A stretch of 64,000 bases of DNA, taken from the sequence record MZ501074. One strand, written 5' to 3'. Below are positions 2,765-45,568 of this stretch, piece by piece; position 1 is the first letter of the stretch, and the number at the start of each line of letters is the position of its first letter. The position numbers and the translations under genes are program-made. The stretch is from Escherichia phage HildyBeyeler. The notes below the pieces were generated by a model. It searched no databases. It was given only the letters and a program-made list of their open reading frames with translations, and was not told the DNA's origin.

Positions 2765-5324
2765 CGAGAATCCTTTTCACGTTATCCAGATCTTTACATA
2801 TAGCAATAAACTTATCGTCCTTGTACTTGCTATGATCTGGATGCTCTTTATCCATTGCAGCTAATTTCTTATACTCGAACTCTGCATCAAGTAATACACC
2901 CTTGACATAGCGAGTATATTCATCATCATCAATACAAGCGATTGATGGGTGCTGTTTCTTCATCTTACCACAAGAATAGTCACGAGAACCTCCAGCTTCA
3001 GAATCTGAATCAATACCAATCGGACAGCCAGGAATACTGATACCACGGTCTTTCTGAATATTACGAATCAGGATTTCATTGTATTGGTCGATTAAGTCTT
3101 CACGAACAATAGCAACTACGGAGTCATGAACCAGCATAACAATCTTCATCTCTTGCTCTAGGCCAAGAGAAATGATCTCATTATCTGCATCTACAGCACC
3201 TAAAAGGAGACTATCAGAAGAAGCAGACTGAATGATTGCGTTAAATCCAGAACGAATTTCTTCCCCCTGAACGCCACGATCTTCAGAATGGATATTATGC
3301 AGACGACGTTTACGACCAAAGTGACTATAGATAAATCCATGATTCTTGATCTGATCGTGGCACTTATCGATCCAACGCTTAAGCTGTGGGAATTGACCAA
3401 AGTAAGTCTCAATGTACTCTTTAGCATCTGCAACAGTACACTCTACAAACGGTTCCCCAGTTTTAGCTGCTTGTTCGAGCAATGCTTCGTTAACAGAATG
3501 TGCTACTTTAGCTGGGCCAGAACCATACAGAATACCAAAGGTGATTGCTTTAGCTGCTTGACGCAGAGCTGGGAATAACTTTTTAACATCACGAGGTTCG
3601 CATTGGAGCTTAAATACCATGTGTGCGATGTTAGAGTGGAAGTCAGGGTATTTATCAGGTTCATTTCTCATGTTGATAAATACTTGTTGCATATTTCTAT
3701 CACCAGATAGAGCAGCAGCATAATAAACTTCCGCAGTTGTTAAGTCCCACGCGATTACACGATACCCAGGAGGAGCTACTACACAACCCTTGATAATAGA
3801 TTCATCACGAGGTAACTGTTGCAGGTTCAGTTTACCAGAAGAACTCAGACGACCAGAAGTGGTCATATGTTCATGGAAACCAGTACGAATGCACCCATCT
3901 GCATCAATACTCAGAAGAATCTTCTCAACATAAGTAGAGATTAGCTTAGTCAGCTTACGAATCTCTAGCAGAGTTTTAGCAATTGGATGCTGCGTAGCCA
4001 GTTCATTCAGAGCTTCTGCATCCGTAGAATCTGCACCAGTATCTGTTAACTTACCAGTTGGAGTCAAACCAACATAATCGAACAGAAGAACACGAAGTTG
4101 TTTAACAGAGTTCGGGTTAAATGCTTCATTCTGATCTTGTTCTAGCTGTTTAACTTCTGGATAAGTGTACAGTTTCTCACGGGCTTTATTCAGGTTATGG
4201 GTTAACTGATACTGAGCTTCTTTCAAACGATCAATAGAGATAGGTACGCCACGATCTTCGACACGTTGTAAGAATACGCAACCAGGCATCAAAACATCGT
4301 AATACAGACTACAAAGTTTTTCATTCTTCTCAATCTTTGGTAAGAAGAAGTTGTGTAAACGTAGGGTAGCATCTGTATCTTTCGCAGCATATGGCCACAT
4401 AATATCAAATGGAATTAAATCATAGGTGAAATCTTCTTTCTTGATTTTATGTGCTTTGCAGTAATCATCTTTGAACTTATCTAGTTCGAAGTCATAGTCA
4501 CCCATATCGGTATACTTCATTGCTAGGGATTTCAAGCCATGAGTACCCCGACGTTCGTCTAGAACATAGTGCTGCAACATGGTATCATGGAGCCTGCGTT
4601 CTTTATGTGCTTTATCAAAAGTAAGCCCCAGATGGTACTTATAAAAGTGCATATCAAACTTTAAGTTGTGAAAAACAATAGTGTGGTTTTCACTATCTAG
4701 AATTTTCTGGAGATAATATACTGCAACCTCTGTGAGACAATCAGAATCGATATATACACCCTGATATTCTTGGTGAGATATAGAAACACCAAGCAGATAA
4801 CCATCTCGACAGTATAGTGCTGAGGTTTCGGAGTCGAATGCGACGGGTCCGATAACCATATTATACACCATCTTGATATATTCTTCCGCCTCGTCAGGGT
4901 CAGTAATAGGACGGTAATCACCAGCTTTTGCAATCTTCTCACGACCATTGATAATATCGTGGATATTCTCTACTGTTGCATCAAAAACTGGTTTCATTTC
5001 AGGCTTAAAGTGTAACTGGGCTGGGCTGATACTCGCAATCCAGTTAGCATATCCATTATATTCTACACGTTTACCAGTATAGTCACCAATGCCTTTCTTA
5101 CCTGCGAAATACAGGAAAGGTTCAGCACCTACTAGTATAACAAAATCATAATCATTCGGATCAAACGGGTTTTCTGGTGTTCCAATAGTAATGTGCTTTT
5201 TAAGCAAACGACCAGATAACTTCTCGTTACACATATGGAATACATCAACTTCCTCGCCGTATAGCTGGAAATGTTTATCGTAACGAGTGTTACTTAGAGC
5301 TTTATCAACTACTGCGATTTTCAA
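2757..5324 (-). CDS. DNA polymerase, family A (855 aa), probable TTG start
   Basis: 3'-5' exonuclease and polymerase motifs (KAITFGILYGSG, LVHDS); 855 aa as in T5 DNA polymerase; GAGGAG RBS. Confidence 0.9.
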   Translation of the reverse strand: MKIAVVDKALSNTRYDKHFQLYGEEVDVFHMCNEKLSGRLLKKHITIGTPENPFDPNDYDFVILVGAEPFLYFAGKKGIGDYTGKRVEYNGYANWIASISPAQLHFKPEMKPVFDATVENIHDIINGREKIAKAGDYRPITDPDEAEEYIKMVYNMVIGPVAFDSETSALYCRDGYLLGVSISHQEYQGVYIDSDCLTEVAVYYLQKILDSENHTIVFHNLKFDMHFYKYHLGLTFDKAHKERRLHDTMLQHYVLDERRGTHGLKSLAMKYTDMGDYDFELDKFKDDYCKAHKIKKEDFTYDLIPFDIMWPYAAKDTDATLRLHNFFLPKIEKNEKLCSLYYDVLMPGCVFLQRVEDRGVPISIDRLKEAQYQLTHNLNKAREKLYTYPEVKQLEQDQNEAFNPNSVKQLRVLLFDYVGLTPTGKLTDTGADSTDAEALNELATQHPIAKTLLEIRKLTKLISTYVEKILLSIDADGCIRTGFHEHMTTSGRLSSSGKLNLQQLPRDESIIKGCVVAPPGYRVIAWDLTTAEVYYAAALSGDRNMQQVFINMRNEPDKYPDFHSNIAHMVFKLQCEPRDVKKLFPALRQAAKAITFGILYGSGPAKVAHSVNEALLEQAAKTGEPFVECTVADAKEYIETYFGQFPQLKRWIDKCHDQIKNHGFIYSHFGRKRRLHNIHSEDRGVQGEEIRSGFNAIIQSASSDSLLLGAVDADNEIISLGLEQEMKIVMLVHDSVVAIVREDLIDQYNEILIRNIQKDRGISIPGCPIGIDSDSEAGGSRDYSCGKMKKQHPSIACIDDDEYTRYVKGVLLDAEFEYKKLAAMDKEHPDHSKYKDDKFIAICKDLDNVKRILGA

Positions 5325-7740: not shown

Positions 7741-8314
7741 TATTTAGCAACTCCTCTGTAAAGTTATCCGCTATATTCTGCGGTTTAACCCTCTCTATAT
7801 CTAGAGCATCTAGGGCTGCGAAATCTCCGTACAAGGCTAAAAGCAGCTTATCTCTATACCACAGAGCTTCTCCTAGAGTTTTTAGGGTTTTTCTAAATAC
7901 TTTGGAGTTTTTAGATATGGTTACTTTAAATGTGTTATTTTTTGTTACTTCTATGTTACGAATGCCTAGCTTGTTACCTATAAAGCTATTAGCGGAATTT
8001 TGAGAGGAAGTAACTTCACGTAAGTTATTCCAAGTATTATCAGTTTTAATTCTATTTTTATGATCAACCTTGTCAGGGATTTCTCCTTCCATATATAGAA
8101 AGGCCCACCTATGCGCTCCCATAGATTTTTGTATACCTGACTCTAAGGTTATCTTTATGTAAATATAGCCTGATGAATGCATATAGCCTGCAGGTTTGTT
8201 AGCGTGCTTAGCATTGAACGCAGGATTATTTTCTCTAGGTAGCCAGTAGAAATTTCCAGTATCAGGCTCATATCTTAATAATGTTTTAAGATACTGCTGG
8301 GTAATCTCCCCCAT
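7733..8314 (-). CDS. HNH homing endonuclease (193 aa)
   Basis: HNH motif VDHKNRIKTDNTWNNLR plus an AP2-like C-terminal segment. Confidence 0.8.
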   Translation of the reverse strand: MGEITQQYLKTLLRYEPDTGNFYWLPRENNPAFNAKHANKPAGYMHSSGYIYIKITLESGIQKSMGAHRWAFLYMEGEIPDKVDHKNRIKTDNTWNNLREVTSSQNSANSFIGNKLGIRNIEVTKNNTFKVTISKNSKVFRKTLKTLGEALWYRDKLLLALYGDFAALDALDIERVKPQNIADNFTEELLNNV

Positions 8315-8373
8315 TATGTAGCCTTCTAATATACAAGAAAGGAGAACCGAAGTTCTCCTTATCTGCCTTCTAA

Positions 8374-9141
8374 TTATTCAGCAGCCGCAGCTTTTGCATC
8401 CAGTTTAGCACGCTTAGCGGCACCATCATAGTCCTTAGCAACCAGACCACGACGAGACAGCATAGATTTAACACCGCGCTCAGACTTACCAGTTTTCTCA
8501 GCGATCTCAGCAACAGTCATGTTAACCAGATCCAGACCTTCTAACAGATCTTCACGAGTTTTAGCACTTGAGGTTTCCTGTACCGGCATAGCAGCGATAC
8601 GACCTTCACGAAGCAGACTCAGAGCTTTACCACGGATCTGTTTGATATTACGACCGAAGTGAGCAGCGATAGCTTCAATAGTAGCCCCAGCAACAACCTG
8701 ATTAACAAAGTCAGTTTCTTCATCCGGAGTGAAGGAACGAACAGCAGCAGTTTTTTCGGTTGGTTTAACAGAAGCGGTCATTTCCAGACTCAGGATCTTA
8801 CCCTGTACCTGTTTAGCACCGAACTGACCACCAGCCACAGCAGCAGCGATTTCAGCATAAGTATACTGACCAGCATGAGCGTTCAGGAAATCAACCAGTT
8901 CAGCTTCCTGCTCAGGAGTCCACGGGGATTTCTGTACTTCGTTAGCTTTCTGTACTTCAAAACCTTCTTTACGCAGTTTAGAGCCAACAGAGCGAGCAGT
9001 AACATCTTTGCCAGTTTCAGCAGCCAGTTCAGCGGCGATAGCAGCTACTTGTTCTTGAGAGATTACATCAACACCCAGAGCAGTGGCTTTTGCTTTCAGA
9101 GACTCGGTTACACCTTCTACGTTCCAGTTCAGTTTAGACAT
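8374..9141 (-). CDS. DNA-binding protein with three tandem HTH-like repeats (255 aa)
   Basis: Three internal repeats of the form TxAEIAxxxGxxxxxxxGKxLSL; Ala-rich. Confidence 0.5.
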   Translation of the reverse strand: MSKLNWNVEGVTESLKAKATALGVDVISQEQVAAIAAELAAETGKDVTARSVGSKLRKEGFEVQKANEVQKSPWTPEQEAELVDFLNAHAGQYTYAEIAAAVAGGQFGAKQVQGKILSLEMTASVKPTEKTAAVRSFTPDEETDFVNQVVAGATIEAIAAHFGRNIKQIRGKALSLLREGRIAAMPVQETSSAKTREDLLEGLDLVNMTVAEIAEKTGKSERGVKSMLSRRGLVAKDYDGAAKRAKLDAKAAAAE

Positions 9142-36245: not shown

Positions 36246-36468
36246 ATATTAATAAATTAGAGAACAGCGGGCCGATTACGCTGAGTGCAGAATCCAAACC
36301 GGAGTGCATTGAATAGAGTCGGTGGGTTAGTTGTAAAACTAGTACACAGTGGGCGGCAATCCCGGTTAGTGGCTAGAACGTGTAAAATGGGGCGTCTGAA
36401 ACCTCTCCCCTAAACTCTTCTCTAGTTTATAAATAGTGGGGTGTGGAAATCACTTATGTAGTAACACT

Positions 36469-36540
36469 GCCGATCTAGTATAAACGGTATTATCAAGCCG
36501 TAACTGGTGGAAGATGTAGGTTCGAATCCTACGATCGGTA
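36469..36540 (+). other. tRNA-like minihelix element (7-bp acceptor-like stem plus T-arm; no anticodon arm found)
   Basis: GCCGATC at 36469-75 pairs with GATCGGT at 36533-39; GTAGG-TTCGAAT-CCTAC T-arm at 36516-32; interior does not fold into D and anticodon arms. Confidence 0.3.
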
Positions 36541-37041
36541 AGAACTGGATAACTGGTGCTTTTAACGTAAAAGCTTCCGAGGTTAGTTGCGCACTGCCTA
36601 AACCACGCGGTAGTTGGTTCCAGACTAACCAACCAGTCTGCTGAATAGTTTTATTACGATTTAACTATGTCCAGGCTAAAGAAGAACTTTAGAAGGTATT
36701 CTAGGTGGTGAAGTTTTTCCTCCATATCGGAGTAGTTTTTCAAGCTACCAACAAAGTGGGAAATGCTGACATGAGAGATGTCACTAATGGTGCACAATAG
36801 CACAGGTAATTCGCGATAACTCCTGTTGAGTAGCAGCAAAAGGCGGGAAGTCATGACCCCAAGCCTAACCGAGTCCTCAATATACCGCAGGACATAACCA
36901 CTAAGTCACCCTGACTTAAACTGGAAAATAATAGACGTTACTGTATTTTGTCTTGAAATACTTAATGAGTGAGACTTATGACTCTCCCGGTATCGTCTGT
37001 ATTTTTAAGAGTTTTTACGAGAGTTCTTAAAAATACTTAAA

Positions 37042-39019: not shown

Positions 39020-39097
39020 GGTTCTCAAGCTCATATGGTATGAGCACCCAGCTCATAACTGGAAGGTACGTAGGTTCGAATCCTCGGGGAGCCACCA
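39020..39097 (+). tRNA. tRNA-Met or Ile2 (anticodon CAU), CCA encoded
   Basis: Acceptor GGTTCTC/GGGAGCC with G-U pairs, D-stem GCTC/GAGC, anticodon loop CU-CAU-AA, TTCGAAT T-loop; T-stem imperfect. Confidence 0.6.
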
Positions 39098-40887: not shown

Positions 40888-40962
40888 GCACCTTTAGCTG
40901 AGATGGATTAGCGCTTGCCTGAAGAGCTTGAGAGGTTGGATCGTTACCAACGGGGTGCACCA
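40888..40962 (+). tRNA. possible tRNA-Phe (anticodon GAA), CCA encoded; non-canonical T-loop
   Basis: Acceptor GCACCTT/GGGGTGC and D-stem GCTG/TAGC are clean; anticodon stem has two U-U mismatches; T-loop AUCGUUA. Confidence 0.4.
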
Positions 40963-40978: not shown

Positions 40979-41252
40979 GATGCATCCTGAAAACTTCTTT
41001 ATTTACTGCGCGGATAAGTCGCTGAAACGTAGAATTAACAAAGTCTATCATTATCGTGCTAGTCAACAGCCTTATGTATACGCTTTTGACGGTGATCACA
41101 TTCCACTAGAACAATTATCTTGTGATTACATGATATTGAAGAACTTTGACGAGACGAAGATCTCAAGCGTTTATAATCGACAGAATCCATTAACGTGGAA
41201 ATATAAGAAGAAAAAGAAAGGCATCAAATTCTTAAAAAATATAGTTGCTTAG
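40979..41252 (+). CDS. hypothetical protein (~90 aa)
   Basis: GAAGGAG RBS 5 nt before the ATG at 40979; the track ORF starts at an upstream TTG. Confidence 0.45.
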
Positions 41253-41273
41253 TTTCCAAAAGTTCTGTATAAT
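41245..41273 (+). promoter_or_regulatory. sigma70 promoter (TTGCTT, 17 bp, TATAAT)
   Basis: Hexamers plus AATTACATAAATTGAACTGGAG box; precedes tRNA-Cys. Confidence 0.65.
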
Positions 41274-41321
41274 AATTACATAAATTGAACTGGAGAAGCA
41301 ACATGATAGAACAAGATAAAT

Positions 41322-41397
41322 CGACCGTTGGCTGAATGGCTTAGGCGAAGGATTGCAAATCCTTTTTATGTGAGTTCAAATCTCATGCGGTCGTCCA
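41322..41397 (+). tRNA. tRNA-Cys (anticodon GCA), CCA encoded
   Basis: Acceptor CGACCGT/GCGGTCG, anticodon arm AAGGA-UUGCAAA-TCCTT, T-loop TTCAAAT. Confidence 0.75.
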
Positions 41398-41399
41398 AT

Positions 41400-41540
41400 T
41401 TGCTGAAAGAATTGTTAAATCAATTCAGGCACGCGTAGGAACACTGTCTCCGTAATTGAAAGATGAGGCACGGTTTGGAGAGGTATGCCGCTACACGCTA
41501 CGGTGCTAACTCCGTCTAGGTGAAAATCCTAGTCAGCAAT
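41400..41540 (+). ncRNA. candidate structured RNA (141 nt) with tRNA-like termini
   Basis: TTGCTGA at 41400-06 pairs perfectly with TCAGCAA at 41533-39; CTAGG-TGAAAAT-CCTAG hairpin sits just before the 3' strand; D-arm-like GAAT/ATTC near the 5' end; no ORF. Confidence 0.35.
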
Positions 41541-41549
41541 GTAAATTTA

Positions 41550-41635
41550 GGGTCGTTGGCTGAACGGTTTAAGCGCCGGACTGTTAATCCGTATCCGCAA
41601 GGATAAAGTAGGTTCAACTCCTACACGGCCCGCCA
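41550..41635 (+). tRNA. tRNA with anticodon GUU (Asn-type) but a long variable arm, CCA encoded
   Basis: Acceptor GGGTCGT/ACGGCCC, 3-bp D-stem, anticodon loop CU-GUU-AA, 15-nt extra arm with GCAA loop, T-arm GTAGG-TTCAACT-CCTAC, G73. Confidence 0.55.
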
Positions 41636-41737
41636 AATTCTGTGTAGAGTTAAGTAAACCGGTAGCCAACCAGCTATCATTGCTGACATCGAATTCAGCC
41701 ACAGATACCATTTTCATTAATAACTAAGGAAACAAGC

Positions 41738-41923
41738 ATGTCCAAGAATGTGATTGCGCAGCTAGAAGTTCATCGTGATAGCACTATCAACAATATTAAG
41801 TGCCGACAAAAAGATATTGAAGCTCAAAAGGCTGATCTTTTAATGAGTATTCGAGAGCTTAATGTACGAAAAGAGTTTCTTAAAGAACTTAATGCAGCTA
41901 TTGAAAAACTCAAAGCTGAGTAA
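41738..41923 (+). CDS. hypothetical coiled-coil protein (61 aa)
   Basis: AAGGAAACAAG RBS. Confidence 0.45.
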   Translation: MSKNVIAQLEVHRDSTINNIKCRQKDIEAQKADLLMSIRELNVRKEFLKELNAAIEKLKAE

Positions 41924-42640: not shown

Positions 42641-42762
42641 CAAAATCTCAGTGCAGAACACGGAGCTAGCAATTCGGAAATGCTGACTCATGATAAGCTG
42701 CCTATGTACTTGCGAAGCGGTCGTGTCCAAGACTCGGACTCTTGCACTGAAAACAATCAAAC

Positions 42763-42883
42763 ATTCTAGCGTGGTTGATGGGGAAACCAGCTTGGCTAGG
42801 GCAGAAGCTCGTTCGATTCGAGTGAAAGAATGGTTCTCGTAAGTCCGCACAAGTGATAACAGGTTCGAGTCCTGTCTAGAATG
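42763..42883 (+). ncRNA. candidate structured RNA (121 nt) with tRNA-like termini
   Basis: ATTCTAG at 42763-69 pairs perfectly with CTAGAAT at 42876-82; T-arm-like ACAGG-TTCGAGT-CCTGT before the 3' strand; internal GCTCG-TTCGATT-CGAGT hairpin. Confidence 0.35.
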
Positions 42884-42897
42884 ACACTATAAAGTTT

Positions 42898-43012
42898 ACT
42901 TATTATGTAGGTTCCGATAGACCGGCGGGTCTATTCTGGCATTTAAGAGAGGTCTCGCAAACTTCTTTGTCAGCCGTGGGGTTGATAGCCCCCAGGTGGC
43001 CTACACAATAAG
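42898..43012 (+). repeat. 14-bp inverted repeat (13 of 14 pairs) enclosing about 87 nt of hairpin-rich sequence
   Basis: ACTTATTATGTAGG at 42898-911 pairs with CCTACACAATAAGT at 42999-43012; internal hairpins ATAGACC/GGTCTAT and GGGG/CCCC. Confidence 0.65.
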
Positions 43013-43868: not shown

Positions 43869-44204
43869 ATTTATATAAATTGATGCGAAAATAGCTGCCT
43901 AGATACCAGGTGTATGACGTCTACACTAGCAGAGCTACCGAAAAAGAGATCCCCAGGATAAACGTCGTAGCAAAATTAGTCTGGTATCCATCAATTTAGT
44001 TCACTAAGGTATTAGCTCGACCTAGGACTGGCTGCCAAAAAGCACGATCCCTACGATTCGGGAGAAGTTCTAGATTAGTCCACTAGATTCAGCGGCAACT
44101 GAATAGTGTATTGGGTTTGCGAGATGACGCAGTTCCTTCCGCTCGAAGCGAAGGTGCTGTAGTTACGCCGAGCTAATAGCCTTAGTAAACTAGAAGGAAT
44201 ATCT

Positions 44205-45000: not shown

Positions 45001-45091
45001 GGAAGAGCAAATCGAATTGGCGACGAAAACCGCTTGGAAAGTGGCTGACCGGTAAAACGGCTTGAGAGTTCAAATCTCTCCTCTTCCGCCA
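45001..45091 (+). tRNA. tRNA-Ser (anticodon GGA), long variable arm, CCA encoded
   Basis: Acceptor GGAAGAG/CTCTTCC, anticodon loop UU-GGA-AA, 18-nt extra arm, T-arm GAGAG-TTCAAAT-CTCTC, G73. Confidence 0.65.
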
Positions 45092-45103
45092 AACAATTTA
45101 TAT

Positions 45104-45198
45104 GGTAGGTCAATCCAACGGCTGGCGCTGGACTCCGACTTGAAATCGGTTGATCGTAGTGATACGGTGTAAGGGTTCGATCCCCTTACCTACCTCCA
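45104..45198 (+). tRNA. tRNA-Ser (anticodon UGA), long variable arm, CCA encoded
   Basis: Acceptor GGTAGGT/ACCTACC, anticodon arm CCGA-CUUGAAA-TCGG, long extra arm, T-arm AAGGG-TTCGATC-CCCTT. Confidence 0.6.
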
Positions 45199-45450
45199 AA
45201 TCTTGAAGTATGCCGGAATCGGTAGACGGGGCTGCCTAAAAGGTTTATAGGGAACATCCACTCCCTGCAACATACCTCATAAAGCGGCTGAGATAAATGG
45301 TCTATCTCGTGAAGGTTCAAGTCCTTCTGCTTCTTGATACATCTATGGCTCAAAGTGTAACGGTGCTATTTGATGCTCTTGGTAAGACTTCCCCGACATG
45401 CGTTCGGGAGTAAGCTGCTAAGACTAGAGTAGAAGAGTTTCTGAGAGCCG

Positions 45451-45568
45451 CCACAATTGAAAATTCGTACTCGTCTTGAGCTGCGTGCAATAGGAGATAA
45501 CTTGATTAGTATTCTAGAACATGCTAATTGAGGATGGTTTCGCTAACCCTGCGAGTTTTCAATTGTGG
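45451..45568 (+). repeat. 13-bp perfect inverted repeat (CCACAATTGAAAA / TTTTCAATTGTGG) enclosing about 92 nt
   Basis: Arms at 45451-63 and 45556-68; the 3' arm runs into the acceptor stem of tRNA-His. Confidence 0.75.

What the first reader, a model, noticed from the sequence alone, without database searches (positions are those of the whole stretch)
41398..41549. A 141-nt element with tRNA-type ends between tRNA-Cys and the GUU tRNA
TTGCTGA at 41400-06 and TCAGCAA at 41533-39 form a perfect 7-bp terminal helix, and a T-arm-like hairpin (CTAGG-TGAAAAT-CCTAG) sits immediately 5' of the 3' strand, exactly as in a tRNA. The span is 141 nt, about twice tRNA length, with a D-arm-like GAAT/ATTC near the 5' end and extra internal helices. 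Possible explanations are a tRNA gene split by an insertion, a stable RNA processed by the tRNA machinery, or a tRNA-derived regulatory RNA.
Basis: seen in the sequence. Interest (0 to 1): 0.6.

Follow-up and report, generated by a model that had tools for sequence, protein, structure and literature searches.

The report
New tRNA-shaped RNA in phage tRNA cluster
Between two tRNA genes of this T5-like Salmonella phage lies an unannotated gene for a 140-nt tRNA-shaped RNA whose anticodon loop is replaced by a branched 70-nt domain; two phage families keep it, but what it does is unknown.

Summary
TTGCTGA (41400-41406) pairs with TCAGCAA (41533-41539), and a 5-bp hairpin with a 7-nt loop abuts the 3' strand.

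The window is Salmonella phage Tennessee, a T5-like phage. The 140-nt unit recurs in about 218 phage records in three lineages: Epseptimavirus/Tequintavirus-like phages, Sugarlandvirus with Yersinia and Enterobacter phages, and Klebsiella Mydovirus myophages. It always lies in a tRNA array, 2-3 nt after a tRNA or tRNA-like 3' end.

Six helices are 99.3% paired, and 15 of 37 pairs show compensatory changes. Genuine tRNAs align end to end with its covariance model, with the anticodon loop replaced by about 70 nt. That insert is a stem extension plus a three-way junction carrying a GNRA-capped hairpin.

It is not a tRNA, an intron-bearing tRNA, a tmRNA or an ORF, and no Rfam family matches it.

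It is a new, unannotated family of a known kind: the "tRNA-like stable RNAs of unknown function" of T5 (RNA1, RNA2) and T4 (species 1). T5 itself lacks it.

Excision by the tRNA-processing machinery is inferred. A role as a tRNA mimic or decoy is speculative.

The parts
41245..41273 (+). Likely promoter of the transcription unit: TTGCTT (41245-41250), a 17-nt spacer, then TATAAT (41268-41273). It is the homolog of T5 promoter P14b.
   Evidence: Window 41219-41315 is almost identical to the stretch that NC_005859 annotates as promoter P14b upstream of tRNA-Cys. The simple consensus scan did not list it, because its -35 hexamer matches only 3 of 6 positions.
41322..41397 (+). tRNA-Cys(GCA) with encoded CCA. 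It ends 2 nt before the element.
   Evidence: ARAGORN; Rfam tRNA, 48.5 bits.
41400..41540 (+). The whole tRNA-shaped RNA gene: 140 nt plus the unpaired 'discriminator' T at 41540. No CCA is encoded.
   Evidence: Covariance model R1 scores 187 bits here and 103-189 bits in the full-length homologs of all three lineages; the truncated NR01 copy scores 91 bits. 99.3% of pair cells are paired. No ORF of 20 aa or more spans the element; only partial overlaps at its ends.
41400..41406 (+). P1 5' strand (acceptor-like, 7 bp). It pairs with 41533-41539.
   Evidence: 4 of 7 pairs carry compensatory changes and the helix is 100% paired (helix 1).
41409..41426 (+). P2, the D-arm-like hairpin: GAATTG, loop TTAAAT, CAATTC. 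The loop has no GG.
   Evidence: 5 of 6 pairs carry compensatory changes and the helix is 100% paired (helix 2).
41428..41438 (+). P3 5' strand: GGCAC, bulged G41433, CGTAG. It pairs with 41498-41507 (CTACG GTGCT). The outer 5 bp correspond to a tRNA anticodon stem.
   Evidence: Found by RNAalifold. 2 of 10 pairs are compensatory and the helix is 100% paired (helix 3). tRNA anticodon stems align to the outer 5 bp. The competing MFE helix 41428-41431/41486-41489 is broken in the Mydovirus copies.
41446..41469 (+). P4 hairpin: GTCTC pairs with GAGGC. A distal AUU/GAU stem is capped by a GAAA tetraloop (41458-41461). The Mydovirus copies have GAGA there.
   Evidence: 3 of 5 basal pairs are compensatory (helix 4). 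The distal 3 bp are 97% paired, with one A-U to G-U change. The GNRA cap is read directly from the alignment.
41471..41490 (+). P5 hairpin (CGGT/GCCG) with the purine-rich 12-nt loop TTGGAGAGGTAT. This helix is predicted but not tested.
   Evidence: 3 of 4 pairs never vary; the only departure is one broken cell in an UNVERIFIED record, so there is no covariation either way (helix 5). A mutually exclusive alternative, 41439-41442 with 41473-41476, is equally compatible with the data.
41491..41497 (+). Junction CTACACG. It is almost invariant in all three lineages and nearly repeats the adjacent P3 strand CTACG.
   Evidence: Alignments. A single G-to-A change occurs in phage atrejo.
41508..41515 (+). 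8-nt single-stranded linker AACTCCGT, in the position of a tRNA variable loop.
   Evidence: Consensus structure. tRNA variable regions align here.
41516..41532 (+). P6, the T-arm-like hairpin: CTAGG, loop TGAAAAT, CCTAG. The loop keeps U1 and A5 of a T-loop but has G,A where tRNAs have U55,C56.
   Evidence: 1 of 5 pairs is compensatory (A-U to U-A) and the helix is 100% paired (helix 6). The loop is invariant in the aligned full-length copies; one partial IMG/VR copy has TGAAAAC.
41533..41539 (+). P1 3' strand, TCAGCAA.
   Evidence: helix 1.
41550..41635 (+). tRNA-Asn(GUU). It starts 10 nt after the element's last paired base.
   Evidence: ARAGORN; Rfam tRNA, 54.7 bits.

Best explanation
Positions 41400-41539 (+) are a gene for a roughly 140-nt, tRNA-shaped, non-coding stable RNA. 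It is a previously unannotated family of the kind known from phage tRNA clusters (T5 RNA1 and RNA2; T4 species 1 and 2).

Shown:
- It folds as a cloverleaf: a 7-bp acceptor-like helix, a D-like hairpin, a 5-bp anticodon-stem equivalent, an 8-nt variable-like linker and a T-like arm.
- The anticodon loop is replaced by about 70 nt. This insert is a 5-bp stem extension plus a three-way junction. One junction hairpin is capped by a GNRA tetraloop and the other carries a purine-rich loop.
- The fold is maintained by compensatory substitutions in three phage lineages from two families.
- G-U pairs place the RNA on the + strand, the strand of the tRNAs.

Inferred:
- It is co-transcribed with tRNA-Cys and tRNA-Asn from the homolog of T5 promoter P14b.
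- RNase P cuts at U41400, because the acceptor/T-arm stack mimics a pre-tRNA. The same cut leaves the upstream tRNA with a 2-nt trailer.
- The A/U-rich 3' trailer is trimmed like a tRNA trailer, and the host enzyme may add CCA, since none is encoded.
- The product cannot decode, because it has no anticodon loop.

Speculative (about 20%):
- It acts in trans as a tRNA mimic. It would occupy or titrate a factor that recognises the acceptor/T-arm/elbow of tRNAs, with the conserved inserted domain giving specificity.
- A host tRNA-targeting defence nuclease is one candidate target.
- It is accessory rather than essential.

The confidence of 0.7 applies to the identity and biogenesis claims: about 0.85 that it is a structured tRNA-like RNA gene and about 0.6 for tRNA-type processing. 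It does not apply to the decoy function.
For: Identity and distribution:
- The window is 100% identical to Salmonella phage Tennessee.
- The element occurs in about 218 of 50,697 phage records, and in nearly all of the records listed nothing is annotated under it.

Structure:
- 37 pairs in 6 helices are 99.3% paired. 15 pairs carry changes on both sides. Partners slid by 1-3 columns give 25-44% pairing and 0-2 such pairs.
- RNAalifold independently finds P1, P2, P3, P4 and P6.
- G-U pairs (for example 31:110 and 77:90, both invariant) would be A-C mismatches on the other strand.

tRNA likeness:
- tRNA-Pro and tRNA-Lys of the window align arm for arm to model R1 at 15-16 bits, E 0.003-0.006, with the central ~70 model positions deleted. 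tRNA-His and tRNA-Ile score about the same (14-15 bits, E 0.006-0.009); the one of these whose alignment was shown, tRNA-His, matches only the acceptor and T arm.

Context:
- The element always lies in a tRNA array on the tRNA strand, 2-3 nt after a tRNA or tRNA-like 3' end (not called by ARAGORN in KKP_3711 and BIS47). The neighbours differ: Cys|Asn here, Asn|ORF in phiR2-01, Asn|Cys in Spivey, Ser|Ser in VIK251.
- The scan found no terminator-like site on the + strand between 40400 and 42400.
- The upstream promoter is homologous to T5 P14b.

Selection:
- It is the best-conserved segment between the window and Klebsiella phage Spivey: 85.6% over 160 nt, against 76.6% for the best tRNA.
- It is also the best-conserved segment between the window and the Mydovirus tRNA array.

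Known kind:
- NC_005859 annotates rna1 and rna2 as 'tRNA-like stable RNA with unknown functions'. NC_000866 annotates rnaC and rnaD as 'small, stable RNA'.
- The window's rna2 homolog also folds as a cloverleaf with an elongated anticodon arm.

Background for the decoy idea:
- Phage tRNAs of the T5 family let phages evade retron and PARIS tRNA-cleaving defences (abstracts of PMC11555353 and PMC11464382, seen).
Against: - No expression, end-mapping or processing data were available. The RNA product is inferred.
- The covariation rests on only three lineages, so on few independent events. It was counted on an alignment fitted to the model.
- P5 and the conserved junctions are essentially invariant, so they are untested. 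P5 competes with an equally compatible alternative helix.
- The single-sequence fold is not exceptional (z about -2).
- The T-loop and D-loop lack the nucleotides that form the tRNA elbow (G18, G19, U55, C56). An L-shape, and therefore efficient RNase P recognition, is not guaranteed.
- No CCA is encoded, unlike in the flanking tRNAs.
- The element is dispensable. T5 lacks it. Phage NR01 keeps only the 3' 83 nt.
- Nothing in the data points to a particular binding partner.
Confidence: 0.7

Rival explanations
1. It is a decaying tRNA pseudogene: a tRNA gene hit by an insertion, with no function of its own, kept only because it sits in a conserved array.
For: It has cloverleaf topology with the anticodon loop replaced. 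It is dispensable in T5 and truncated in NR01. The window also carries tRNA-sized units that score below the tRNA thresholds.
Against: 15 of 37 pairs are compensated and 99.3% of cells are paired across two phage families, including pairs within the insert. The insert's junctions and loops are almost invariant. The element is more conserved than the neighbouring tRNAs between genera. Its neighbours differ between lineages, so it moves as a unit.
Confidence: 0.07
2. It is a processing spacer ('punctuation'). Its only role would be to offer RNase P a site that frees the 3' end of the upstream tRNA and separates the neighbours. The excised piece would be waste.
For: It begins 2-3 nt after the 3' end (CCA where encoded) of the upstream tRNA in the lineages checked. 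The acceptor/T-arm mimic is the minimal RNase P substrate (established knowledge of RNase P).
Against: Elsewhere in the same array adjacent tRNAs sit 5-8 nt apart with no such spacer, so the next tRNA already does this job. A spacer would not need a conserved 70-nt three-way junction with a GNRA cap.
Confidence: 0.1
3. It is a functional tRNA gene carrying an intron in the anticodon arm, spliced to give a decoding tRNA.
For: The insert sits exactly where the anticodon loop should be.
Against: Removing the insert leaves no 7-nt loop, no U33 and no anticodon. At 70 nt it is far below the size of group I introns, the only self-splicing class known in bacterial and phage tRNA genes (established knowledge). 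No Rfam intron or tRNA hit appears at E<=10. ARAGORN with -i calls nothing. The canonical D-loop and T-loop nucleotides are absent.
Confidence: 0.02
4. It is a miniature tmRNA-like or ribosome-directed RNA. The P5 loop carries a Shine-Dalgarno-like GGAGAGG (GGGAGG in Mydovirus) followed by AUG and a 12-codon frame ending at the UGA in the T-loop.
For: Read directly from the sequence: GGAGAGGTATGCCGCTACACGCTACGGTGCTAACTCCGTCTAGGTGA. Both the SD-like run and the frame are present in all three lineages.
Against: ARAGORN finds no tmRNA. There is no G3:U70 alanine identity pair and no pseudoknots. The frame lies inside P5, P3 and P6. Differences between lineages are non-synonymous (V>G, P>L, R>W) and are exactly those explained by RNA pairing. 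Synonymous positions are invariant, which points to RNA-level constraint.
Confidence: 0.02
5. It is a cis-acting regulatory structure, such as an attenuator or a ligand or protein sensor, that controls read-through into tRNA-Asn and the downstream genes.
For: The near-repeat CTAC-A-CG/CTACG next to P3 would allow an alternative register. The junctions are highly conserved.
Against: No terminator-like hairpin with a U-run lies in or after it. The downstream neighbour differs between lineages. No riboswitch family matches.
Confidence: 0.05

Closest known systems
T5 RNA2 and RNA1 ('tRNA-like stable RNA with unknown functions', genes rna2 and rna1 of NC_005859)
   Same: They lie in the same phage group and the same tRNA region, on the tRNA strand and flanked by tRNAs. 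They are 125-144 nt long. Each has an acceptor-like terminal helix abutting a T-arm, with an enlarged anticodon region and no encoded CCA. The window carries homologs of both, at 42762-42886 and 45202-45346.
   Different: There is no sequence or covariance-model similarity (6.7 bits, E=1 with filters off). RNA2 and RNA1 keep canonical T-loops (UUCGAGU, UUCAAGU), and RNA2 has a GG-containing D-loop. The present element has UGAAAAU and no GG. Its insert is branched (a three-way junction with a GNRA cap) rather than one long arm. It is absent from T5 and is also found in Vequintavirinae.
T4 species 1 RNA (rnaC, 139 nt) and species 2 RNA (rnaD)
   Same: They are small stable RNAs encoded in a phage tRNA cluster. 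Species 1 is of similar size and has a tRNA-type T-arm next to its 3' end. Their function is still unknown (annotation).
   Different: They are not homologous: R1 finds nothing in the T4 locus. rnaC has the canonical GGUUCGAAUCC T-arm. Its MFE fold shows no D-like or anticodon-stem equivalents.
Canonical tRNA (Rfam RF00005)
   Same: It has a 7-bp acceptor helix, a 2-nt linker, a D-position hairpin, a 1-nt linker, a 5-bp anticodon-stem equivalent, a variable-position linker and a 5-bp T-stem with a 7-nt loop. It sits in a tRNA array.
   Different: It has no anticodon loop, G18/G19, U55/C56 or U8. It is 140 nt long. The tRNA covariance model and ARAGORN do not detect it.
tmRNA tRNA-like domain, and bacterial Y RNA YrlA
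   Same: These are RNAs that combine a tRNA-mimicking module with a non-tRNA domain (from my own knowledge of these families).
   Different: There is no Rfam hit to tmRNA or Y-RNA families at E<=10. There is no G3:U70 pair, no pseudoknots and no tag frame. In YrlA the termini lie in the Ro-binding stem rather than in the acceptor-like helix (from memory, not tested here).

Membership tests
Phage tRNA-cluster 'tRNA-like stable RNA' (T5 RNA1/RNA2, T4 species 1): a kind defined by features, not a homologous family | Encoded inside a phage tRNA gene array, on the tRNA strand, abutting tRNAs | tested here: met
   The element lies 2-3 nt after a tRNA or tRNA-like 3' end in every copy checked from all three lineages.
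Phage tRNA-cluster 'tRNA-like stable RNA' (T5 RNA1/RNA2, T4 species 1): a kind defined by features, not a homologous family | Terminal helix stacked on a T-arm-like hairpin (an RNase P-type substrate), but no decoding anticodon arm | tested here: met
   P1 and P6 are conserved with covariation. The anticodon loop is replaced by about 70 nt.
Phage tRNA-cluster 'tRNA-like stable RNA' (T5 RNA1/RNA2, T4 species 1): a kind defined by features, not a homologous family | Accumulates as a discrete stable RNA in infected cells | not testable with these tools
   No expression data were available, and no paper reporting it was found.
Phage tRNA-cluster 'tRNA-like stable RNA' (T5 RNA1/RNA2, T4 species 1): a kind defined by features, not a homologous family | Sequence or profile homology to T5 rna1, rna2, rna3, rnaI, rnaIII, rnaIV, rna2H or rnaX, or to T4 rnaC or rnaD | tested here: not met
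   BLAST gives only 7-12-nt chance matches. Model R1 finds nothing in the T5 or T4 loci. The element is therefore a separate family of the same kind.
tRNA (RF00005) | Scores at or above the Rfam gathering threshold, or is called by ARAGORN | tested here: not met
   No hit at E<=10. ARAGORN finds nothing, even with the intron option and an 80% or 70% threshold.
tRNA (RF00005) | A 7-nt anticodon loop with U33, and the conserved elbow nucleotides G18, G19, U54, U55, C56 | tested here: not met
   Read from the sequence: the D-like loop is UUAAAU, the T-like loop is UGAAAAU, and there is no anticodon loop.
tRNA (RF00005) | Cloverleaf topology with a 7-bp acceptor and a 5-bp T-stem | tested here: met
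   At least two genuine tRNAs (Pro, Lys) align arm for arm to R1, and the pairs covary.
Intron-containing tRNA (group I intron in the anticodon loop) | An intron with a group I core, and exons that join into a canonical anticodon stem-loop | tested here: not met
   The insert is only 70 nt. No Rfam intron hit appears. The residual 'exons' leave no loop. ARAGORN -i is negative.
tmRNA | A tRNA-Ala-like domain with G3:U70, pseudoknots and a tag reading frame | tested here: not met
   ARAGORN's tmRNA search is negative. Pair 3:70 is G-C or A-U. No Rfam tmRNA hit appears.

The most novel reading that the evidence does not exclude
The RNA is a dedicated phage counter-defence or host-takeover effector. 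In this reading it is a non-decoding tRNA mimic. Its acceptor/T-arm half would be bound by a host tRNA-recognising protein, for example a tRNA-cleaving defence nuclease of the PrrC, PARIS, retron-Eco7 or Schlafen type, or a tRNA-processing or modification enzyme. Its conserved three-way-junction domain would lock or inhibit that protein. That would give the first function for the 50-year-old class of phage tRNA-like stable RNAs. The patchy presence among near-identical T5-like phages and the apparent transfer into Klebsiella myophages would fit an accessory arms-race gene.
Probability: 0.15. Interest if true: 0.8.

Novelty: new member of a known kind. Interest (0 to 1): 0.45.

Why it matters
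Phage tRNA clusters have been known since the 1970s-80s to encode stable, tRNA-like RNAs. None of them has an assigned function.

This element adds a well-supported new family to that class. It has a clear, covarying architecture and is not in Rfam. In nearly all of the records listed from the ~218 that carry it, nothing is annotated under it.

It is also experimentally convenient:
- Close relatives differ by its presence (Tennessee, SE11, Shivani and others), its absence (T5) or its truncation (NR01).
- It occurs in two unrelated virion types that infect Enterobacteriaceae.

Recent work shows that T5-family tRNAs defeat tRNA-cleaving defences. A non-decoding tRNA mimic in the same operons is therefore an obvious candidate to test on defence-system panels.

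At the least, it should be annotated and given a covariance model, so that it stops being read as empty intergenic DNA or as a spurious 'hypothetical protein' (as in phages Es2 and Roth37).

Tried and rejected
- Rfam, both strands, at gathering score over the whole window and at E<=10 over 41250-41750, found only the flanking tRNAs and a spurious plastid motif.
- ARAGORN with default settings, with the intron option and with lowered thresholds found nothing. At 60% it gives a meaningless 'tRNA-Thr' built on the 3' half.
- Homology to the eight T5 'stable RNAs' and to T4 rnaC and rnaD was negative.
- Protein coding was rejected. No ORF of 20 aa or more spans the element, and the internal 12-codon frame was rejected on its substitution pattern.
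- The single-sequence MFE helices GGCA/UGCC and ACGG/CCGU were rejected in favour of the 10-bp P3. The former is broken in Mydovirus with no compensation, while P3 shows two compensated pairs.
- Widening the family led nowhere. Three IMG/VR pattern scans and one metagenome scan returned only the same three lineages plus chance hits in coding DNA.
- My genome contigs pattern was too loose. Bacterial homologs are therefore not excluded by that scan.
- BLAST against 5,426 complete E. coli genomes and 72,556 plasmids found no match.
- MAFFT misaligned the Mydovirus 5' end. I used a covariance-model alignment instead. That alignment in turn forces a poor register for Mydovirus P4, which by eye is a perfect UCCCC/GGGGA helix.
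- Literature searches found no description of this element and no transcriptome of a T5-like tRNA region.
Full report
**1. What is there**

The window is 100% identical over the 501 bases tested to Salmonella phage Tennessee (OZ075147), a T5-like member of the Demerecviridae.

The finding lies in the phage's tRNA region. ARAGORN finds 21 tRNAs between 36.4 and 47.7 kb, all on the + strand.
- TTGCTGA (41400-41406) is perfectly complementary to TCAGCAA (41533-41539).
- CTAGG-TGAAAAT-CCTAG (41516-41532) abuts the 3' strand.
- GAATTG/CAATTC (41409-41414 and 41421-41426) forms a hairpin 2 nt after the 5' strand.

The paired span is 140 nt, not 141.

**2. Is it more than chance?**

From this one sequence, barely. 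The fold energy is only about two standard deviations below that of shuffled sequences. I estimate that a lone long-range 7-mer complement in 152 nt would arise by chance several percent of the time.

The composite motif is rarer. I scanned for a perfect 7-bp terminal helix directly followed by a perfect 5-bp hairpin with a 7-nt loop. It occurs 17 times in the window, against about 2 in simulated sequence. On the + strand of the tRNA region most of the hits are genuine tRNAs, this element, and the homolog of T5 RNA2.

**3. Comparative evidence**

BLAST finds the element in about 218 phage records. They fall into three sequence groups.
- Group A is Salmonella, E. coli and Shigella T5-like phages (Epseptimavirus/Tequintavirus-like), 95-100% identical to the window.
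- Group B is Klebsiella Sugarlandvirus, Yersinia phiR2-01 and Enterobacter KKP_3711, at 88-90%.
- Group C is Klebsiella myophages of genus Mydovirus (Vequintavirinae: VIK251, BIS47, P8734), at about 76%.

In group C phages VIK251 and P8734 the unit fills the 144-nt gap between tRNA-Ser(GCU) and tRNA-Ser(UGA).

In every copy checked it lies on the tRNA strand, 2-3 nt after a tRNA or tRNA-like 3' end (not called by ARAGORN in KKP_3711 and BIS47). The neighbours differ: Cys|Asn here, Asn|ORF in phiR2-01, Asn|Cys in Spivey, Ser|Ser in VIK251. It therefore behaves as an independent module of tRNA arrays.

It is also the best-conserved segment in two cross-genus comparisons:
- between the window and the 5-kb Mydovirus array;
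- between the window and the Spivey locus, at 85.6% over 160 nt against 76.6% for the best tRNA.

No copy was found in 5,426 E. coli genomes or 72,556 plasmids.

**4. Structure**

RNAalifold on ten sequences recovered the terminal helix, the D-like hairpin and the T-like hairpin. It also found a helix the single-sequence fold had missed. GGCAC-G-CGUAG (41428-41438) pairs with CUACG-GUGCU (41498-41507), giving 10 bp with one bulged G.

I built a covariance model (R1) from groups A and B with six helices. I then let it align group C.

On that 15-sequence alignment:
- 99.3% of pair cells are standard pairs;
- 15 of 37 pairs have changes on both sides;
- with partners slid by 1-3 columns, pairing drops to 25-44% and compensated pairs to 0-2.

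Compensated pairs occur in P1 (4 of 7), P2 (5 of 6), P3 (2 of 10), P4 (3 of 5) and P6 (1 of 5). P5 (CGGU/GCCG, 41471-41474 with 41487-41490) is essentially invariant and so untested. A mutually exclusive alternative helix is equally compatible with the data.

The MFE's GGCA/UGCC helix is broken in group C without compensation.

The tip of P4 is a GNRA tetraloop in all groups. In A and B it is AUU-GAAA-GAU, with GAAA at 41458-41461. In C it is AU-GAGA-GU.

Invariant and lineage-specific G-U pairs place the functional strand on the + strand.

Two caveats apply. Three lineages mean few independent substitution events. The alignment was also fitted to the model.

**5. How tRNA-like is it?**

With filters off, the next-best hits to R1 in the tRNA region are genuine tRNAs (Pro, Lys, His, Ile) at 14-16 bits, E 0.003-0.009. 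In the Pro and Lys alignments:
- the acceptor aligns to P1;
- the D-arm aligns to P2;
- the anticodon stem aligns to the outer 5 bp of P3;
- the variable loop aligns to the 8-nt linker;
- the T-arm aligns to P6;
- about 70 model positions are deleted where the anticodon loop would be.

The His alignment matches only the acceptor and T arm, and the Ile alignment was not shown.

The topology is therefore a cloverleaf whose anticodon loop has been replaced. The replacement is a 5-bp stem extension plus a three-way junction.

It is nonetheless not a tRNA.
- Rfam's tRNA model gives nothing at E<=10.
- ARAGORN calls nothing, even with the intron option.
- The D-like loop (UUAAAU) has no GG.
- The T-like loop (UGAAAAU) keeps only U54 and A58 of the canonical set.
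- No CCA is encoded, unlike in both neighbours.
- Removing the insert leaves no loop at all.

No ORF spans it. The internal 12-codon frame that follows a Shine-Dalgarno-like run lies inside helices, and it changes non-synonymously exactly where RNA pairing requires.

**6. What it is**

T5's RefSeq record annotates eight 'stable RNAs with unknown functions' in its tRNA region. Two of them (rna1, 144 nt; rna2, 125 nt) are called tRNA-like. T4 annotates rnaC (species 1, 139 nt) and rnaD.

The window carries homologs of all eight T5 RNAs. The rna2 homolog also folds as a cloverleaf with an elongated anticodon arm.

The present element is not homologous to any of them, and T5 does not have it. In T5 the Cys-Asn interval holds ORF T5.069, a T5orf172/MUG113-domain protein.

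The element is thus a ninth such RNA in this phage. It is a new family of an already known kind. It is not in Rfam. In nearly all of the records listed from the ~218 that carry it, nothing is annotated under it, and a few (Es2, Roth37, BIS47) lay a protein-coding feature over it.

**7. How it most likely works**

Shown: the conserved, covarying cloverleaf-like fold, its strand, its array context, and the absence of coding capacity.

Inferred from context and from established tRNA-processing biochemistry:
- The promoter is the homolog of T5 P14b (TTGCTT-17-TATAAT, 41245-41273). The window is nearly identical to T5 here, apart from a 115-nt deletion that removes most of ORF T5.070.
- The scan found no terminator-like site on the + strand between 40400 and 42400, so the element should be part of a Cys-element-Asn precursor.
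- The 12-bp acceptor/T-arm stack is what RNase P needs. Cleavage at U41400 would at the same time leave tRNA-Cys with a 2-nt trailer.
- The A/U-rich trailer (UGUAAAUUUA) would be removed like a tRNA trailer, and the host enzyme could add CCA.

Function is unknown. My best guess, at about 20%, is a trans-acting tRNA mimic that engages a tRNA-recognising factor, with the conserved junction domain giving specificity. Tertiary docking of the GNRA loop would make the RNA compact.

The arms-race setting makes a defence nuclease a natural candidate. T5-family tRNAs are reported to neutralise retron and PARIS tRNA-cleaving systems (PMC11555353 and PMC11464382, abstracts seen).

The element is accessory. 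T5 lacks it. Phage NR01 retains only its 3' 83 nt, fused to a promoter and leader.

**8. Rivals**

- A dead tRNA pseudogene is contradicted by the covariation within the insert, and by conservation exceeding that of the neighbouring tRNAs.
- A mere processing spacer is unnecessary, since other tRNAs in the array sit 5-8 nt apart. It also would not need a conserved three-way junction.
- An intron-bearing tRNA and a mini-tmRNA each fail their defining tests.
- A cis-regulatory switch is not excluded, but it lacks a terminator and a constant downstream gene.

**9. Verdict**

This is a real, conserved, structured RNA gene. It is a new family within the known class of phage tRNA-like stable RNAs. 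Its biogenesis by the tRNA machinery is plausible but unobserved, and its function is unknown.

It is of moderate interest. It is worth annotating and testing, but it is not a new kind of system.

Noticed in passing
window 36413-37041, 41638-41710, 42762-42886, 42905-43007, 44010-44181, 45202-45346, 45347-45453, 45458-45563 (+): These are homologs (85-100% identity) of all eight T5 'stable RNAs with unknown functions': rnaX, rna3, rna2, rnaIV, rna2H, rna1, rnaI and rnaIII. rna3 starts 2 nt after tRNA-Asn, so the finding sits in a run of tRNA-Cys, new RNA, tRNA-Asn, RNA3.
   Followed up: partly
window 45002-45087 and 45104-45194 (+): Two tRNA-sized units (86 and 91 nt) have perfect acceptor and T-arm geometry, but ARAGORN and Rfam at gathering score do not call them. 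They score below threshold (tRNA 21.7 bits; tRNA-Sec model 38.3 bits against a cut-off of 47). T5 has tRNA-Ser(UGA) and tRNA-Ser(GGA) at the syntenic place, so they may be divergent or decaying class II tRNAs.
   Followed up: partly
window 41304-41336 (+): Downstream of the P14b-like promoter is a 10-codon ORF with a ribosome-binding site (GGAGAAGCAAC-ATG; MIEQDKSTVG*). It runs into the 5' end of tRNA-Cys. It is what remains of T5 ORF T5.070 after a 115-nt deletion relative to T5.
   Followed up: partly
L016 (Salmonella phage NR01) 919-1120, minus strand: tRNA-Cys and the 5' 57 nt of the element are missing. A promoter (TTGCCT...TATAAT), a ribosome-binding site and a 12-codon ORF (MQNRVIATGIER*) are fused to the element inside the P4 loop. 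This is a natural truncation showing the RNA is dispensable in that phage.
   Followed up: partly
L003 (T5) 8007-8545, minus strand: In T5 the Cys-Asn interval holds ORF T5.069 (172 aa) with T5orf172/MUG113 domains, a fold related to GIY-YIG nucleases as far as I recall. The first bases after tRNA-Cys (AATTACTAAAGG) resemble the start of the group B element (TTTTACTGAAAGG). This may be a remnant left when the ORF displaced the element.
   Followed up: partly
L161 (IMGVR_UViG_3300032312_001269) 4179-4250, minus strand: A 72-nt tRNA-like gene sits 6 nt after tRNA-Gly in an unrelated viral contig. It has a 7-bp acceptor, a tiny D-like hairpin, a 5-bp stem with a 5-nt loop, a T-arm identical over 21 nt to the Mydovirus element (UGUCUUGGUGAAAAUCCAAGU), and an encoded U-CCA. 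Rfam's tRNA model and ARAGORN do not call it; R1 scores 20.9 bits; the fold z-score is -3.3. It hints at a wider class of phage tRNA mimics with a UGAAAAU T-loop.
   Followed up: partly
window 41550-41635 (+): tRNA-Asn(GUU) is 86 nt long, with a 12-nt insertion (UCCGCAAGGAUA) in the variable region that can form a small hairpin. This is unusual for an Asn tRNA. The T5 copy is 78 nt, while the Mydovirus VIK251 copy is 89 nt.
   Followed up: no
window 36468-36541, 39020-39094, 40888-40959 (+): The tRNA callers disagree. ARAGORN reports a 'tRNA-Ser(ACU)' inside the rnaX homolog (Rfam tRNA, 39 bits). Rfam alone calls tRNAs at 39020-39094 and 40888-40959. From T5 synteny the first sits at the position of tRNA-Ile2(CAU) and the second at that of tRNA-Phe(GAA), assuming the gene order matches.
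   Followed up: no
L022 (Klebsiella phage BIS47) 2426-2568; hits H89 and H92: In the BIS47 GenBank record the element lies under a feature annotated 'DNA ligase'. In phages Es2 and Roth37 it lies under 'hypothetical protein' CDSs. These are probably mis-annotations over a non-coding RNA.
   Followed up: no
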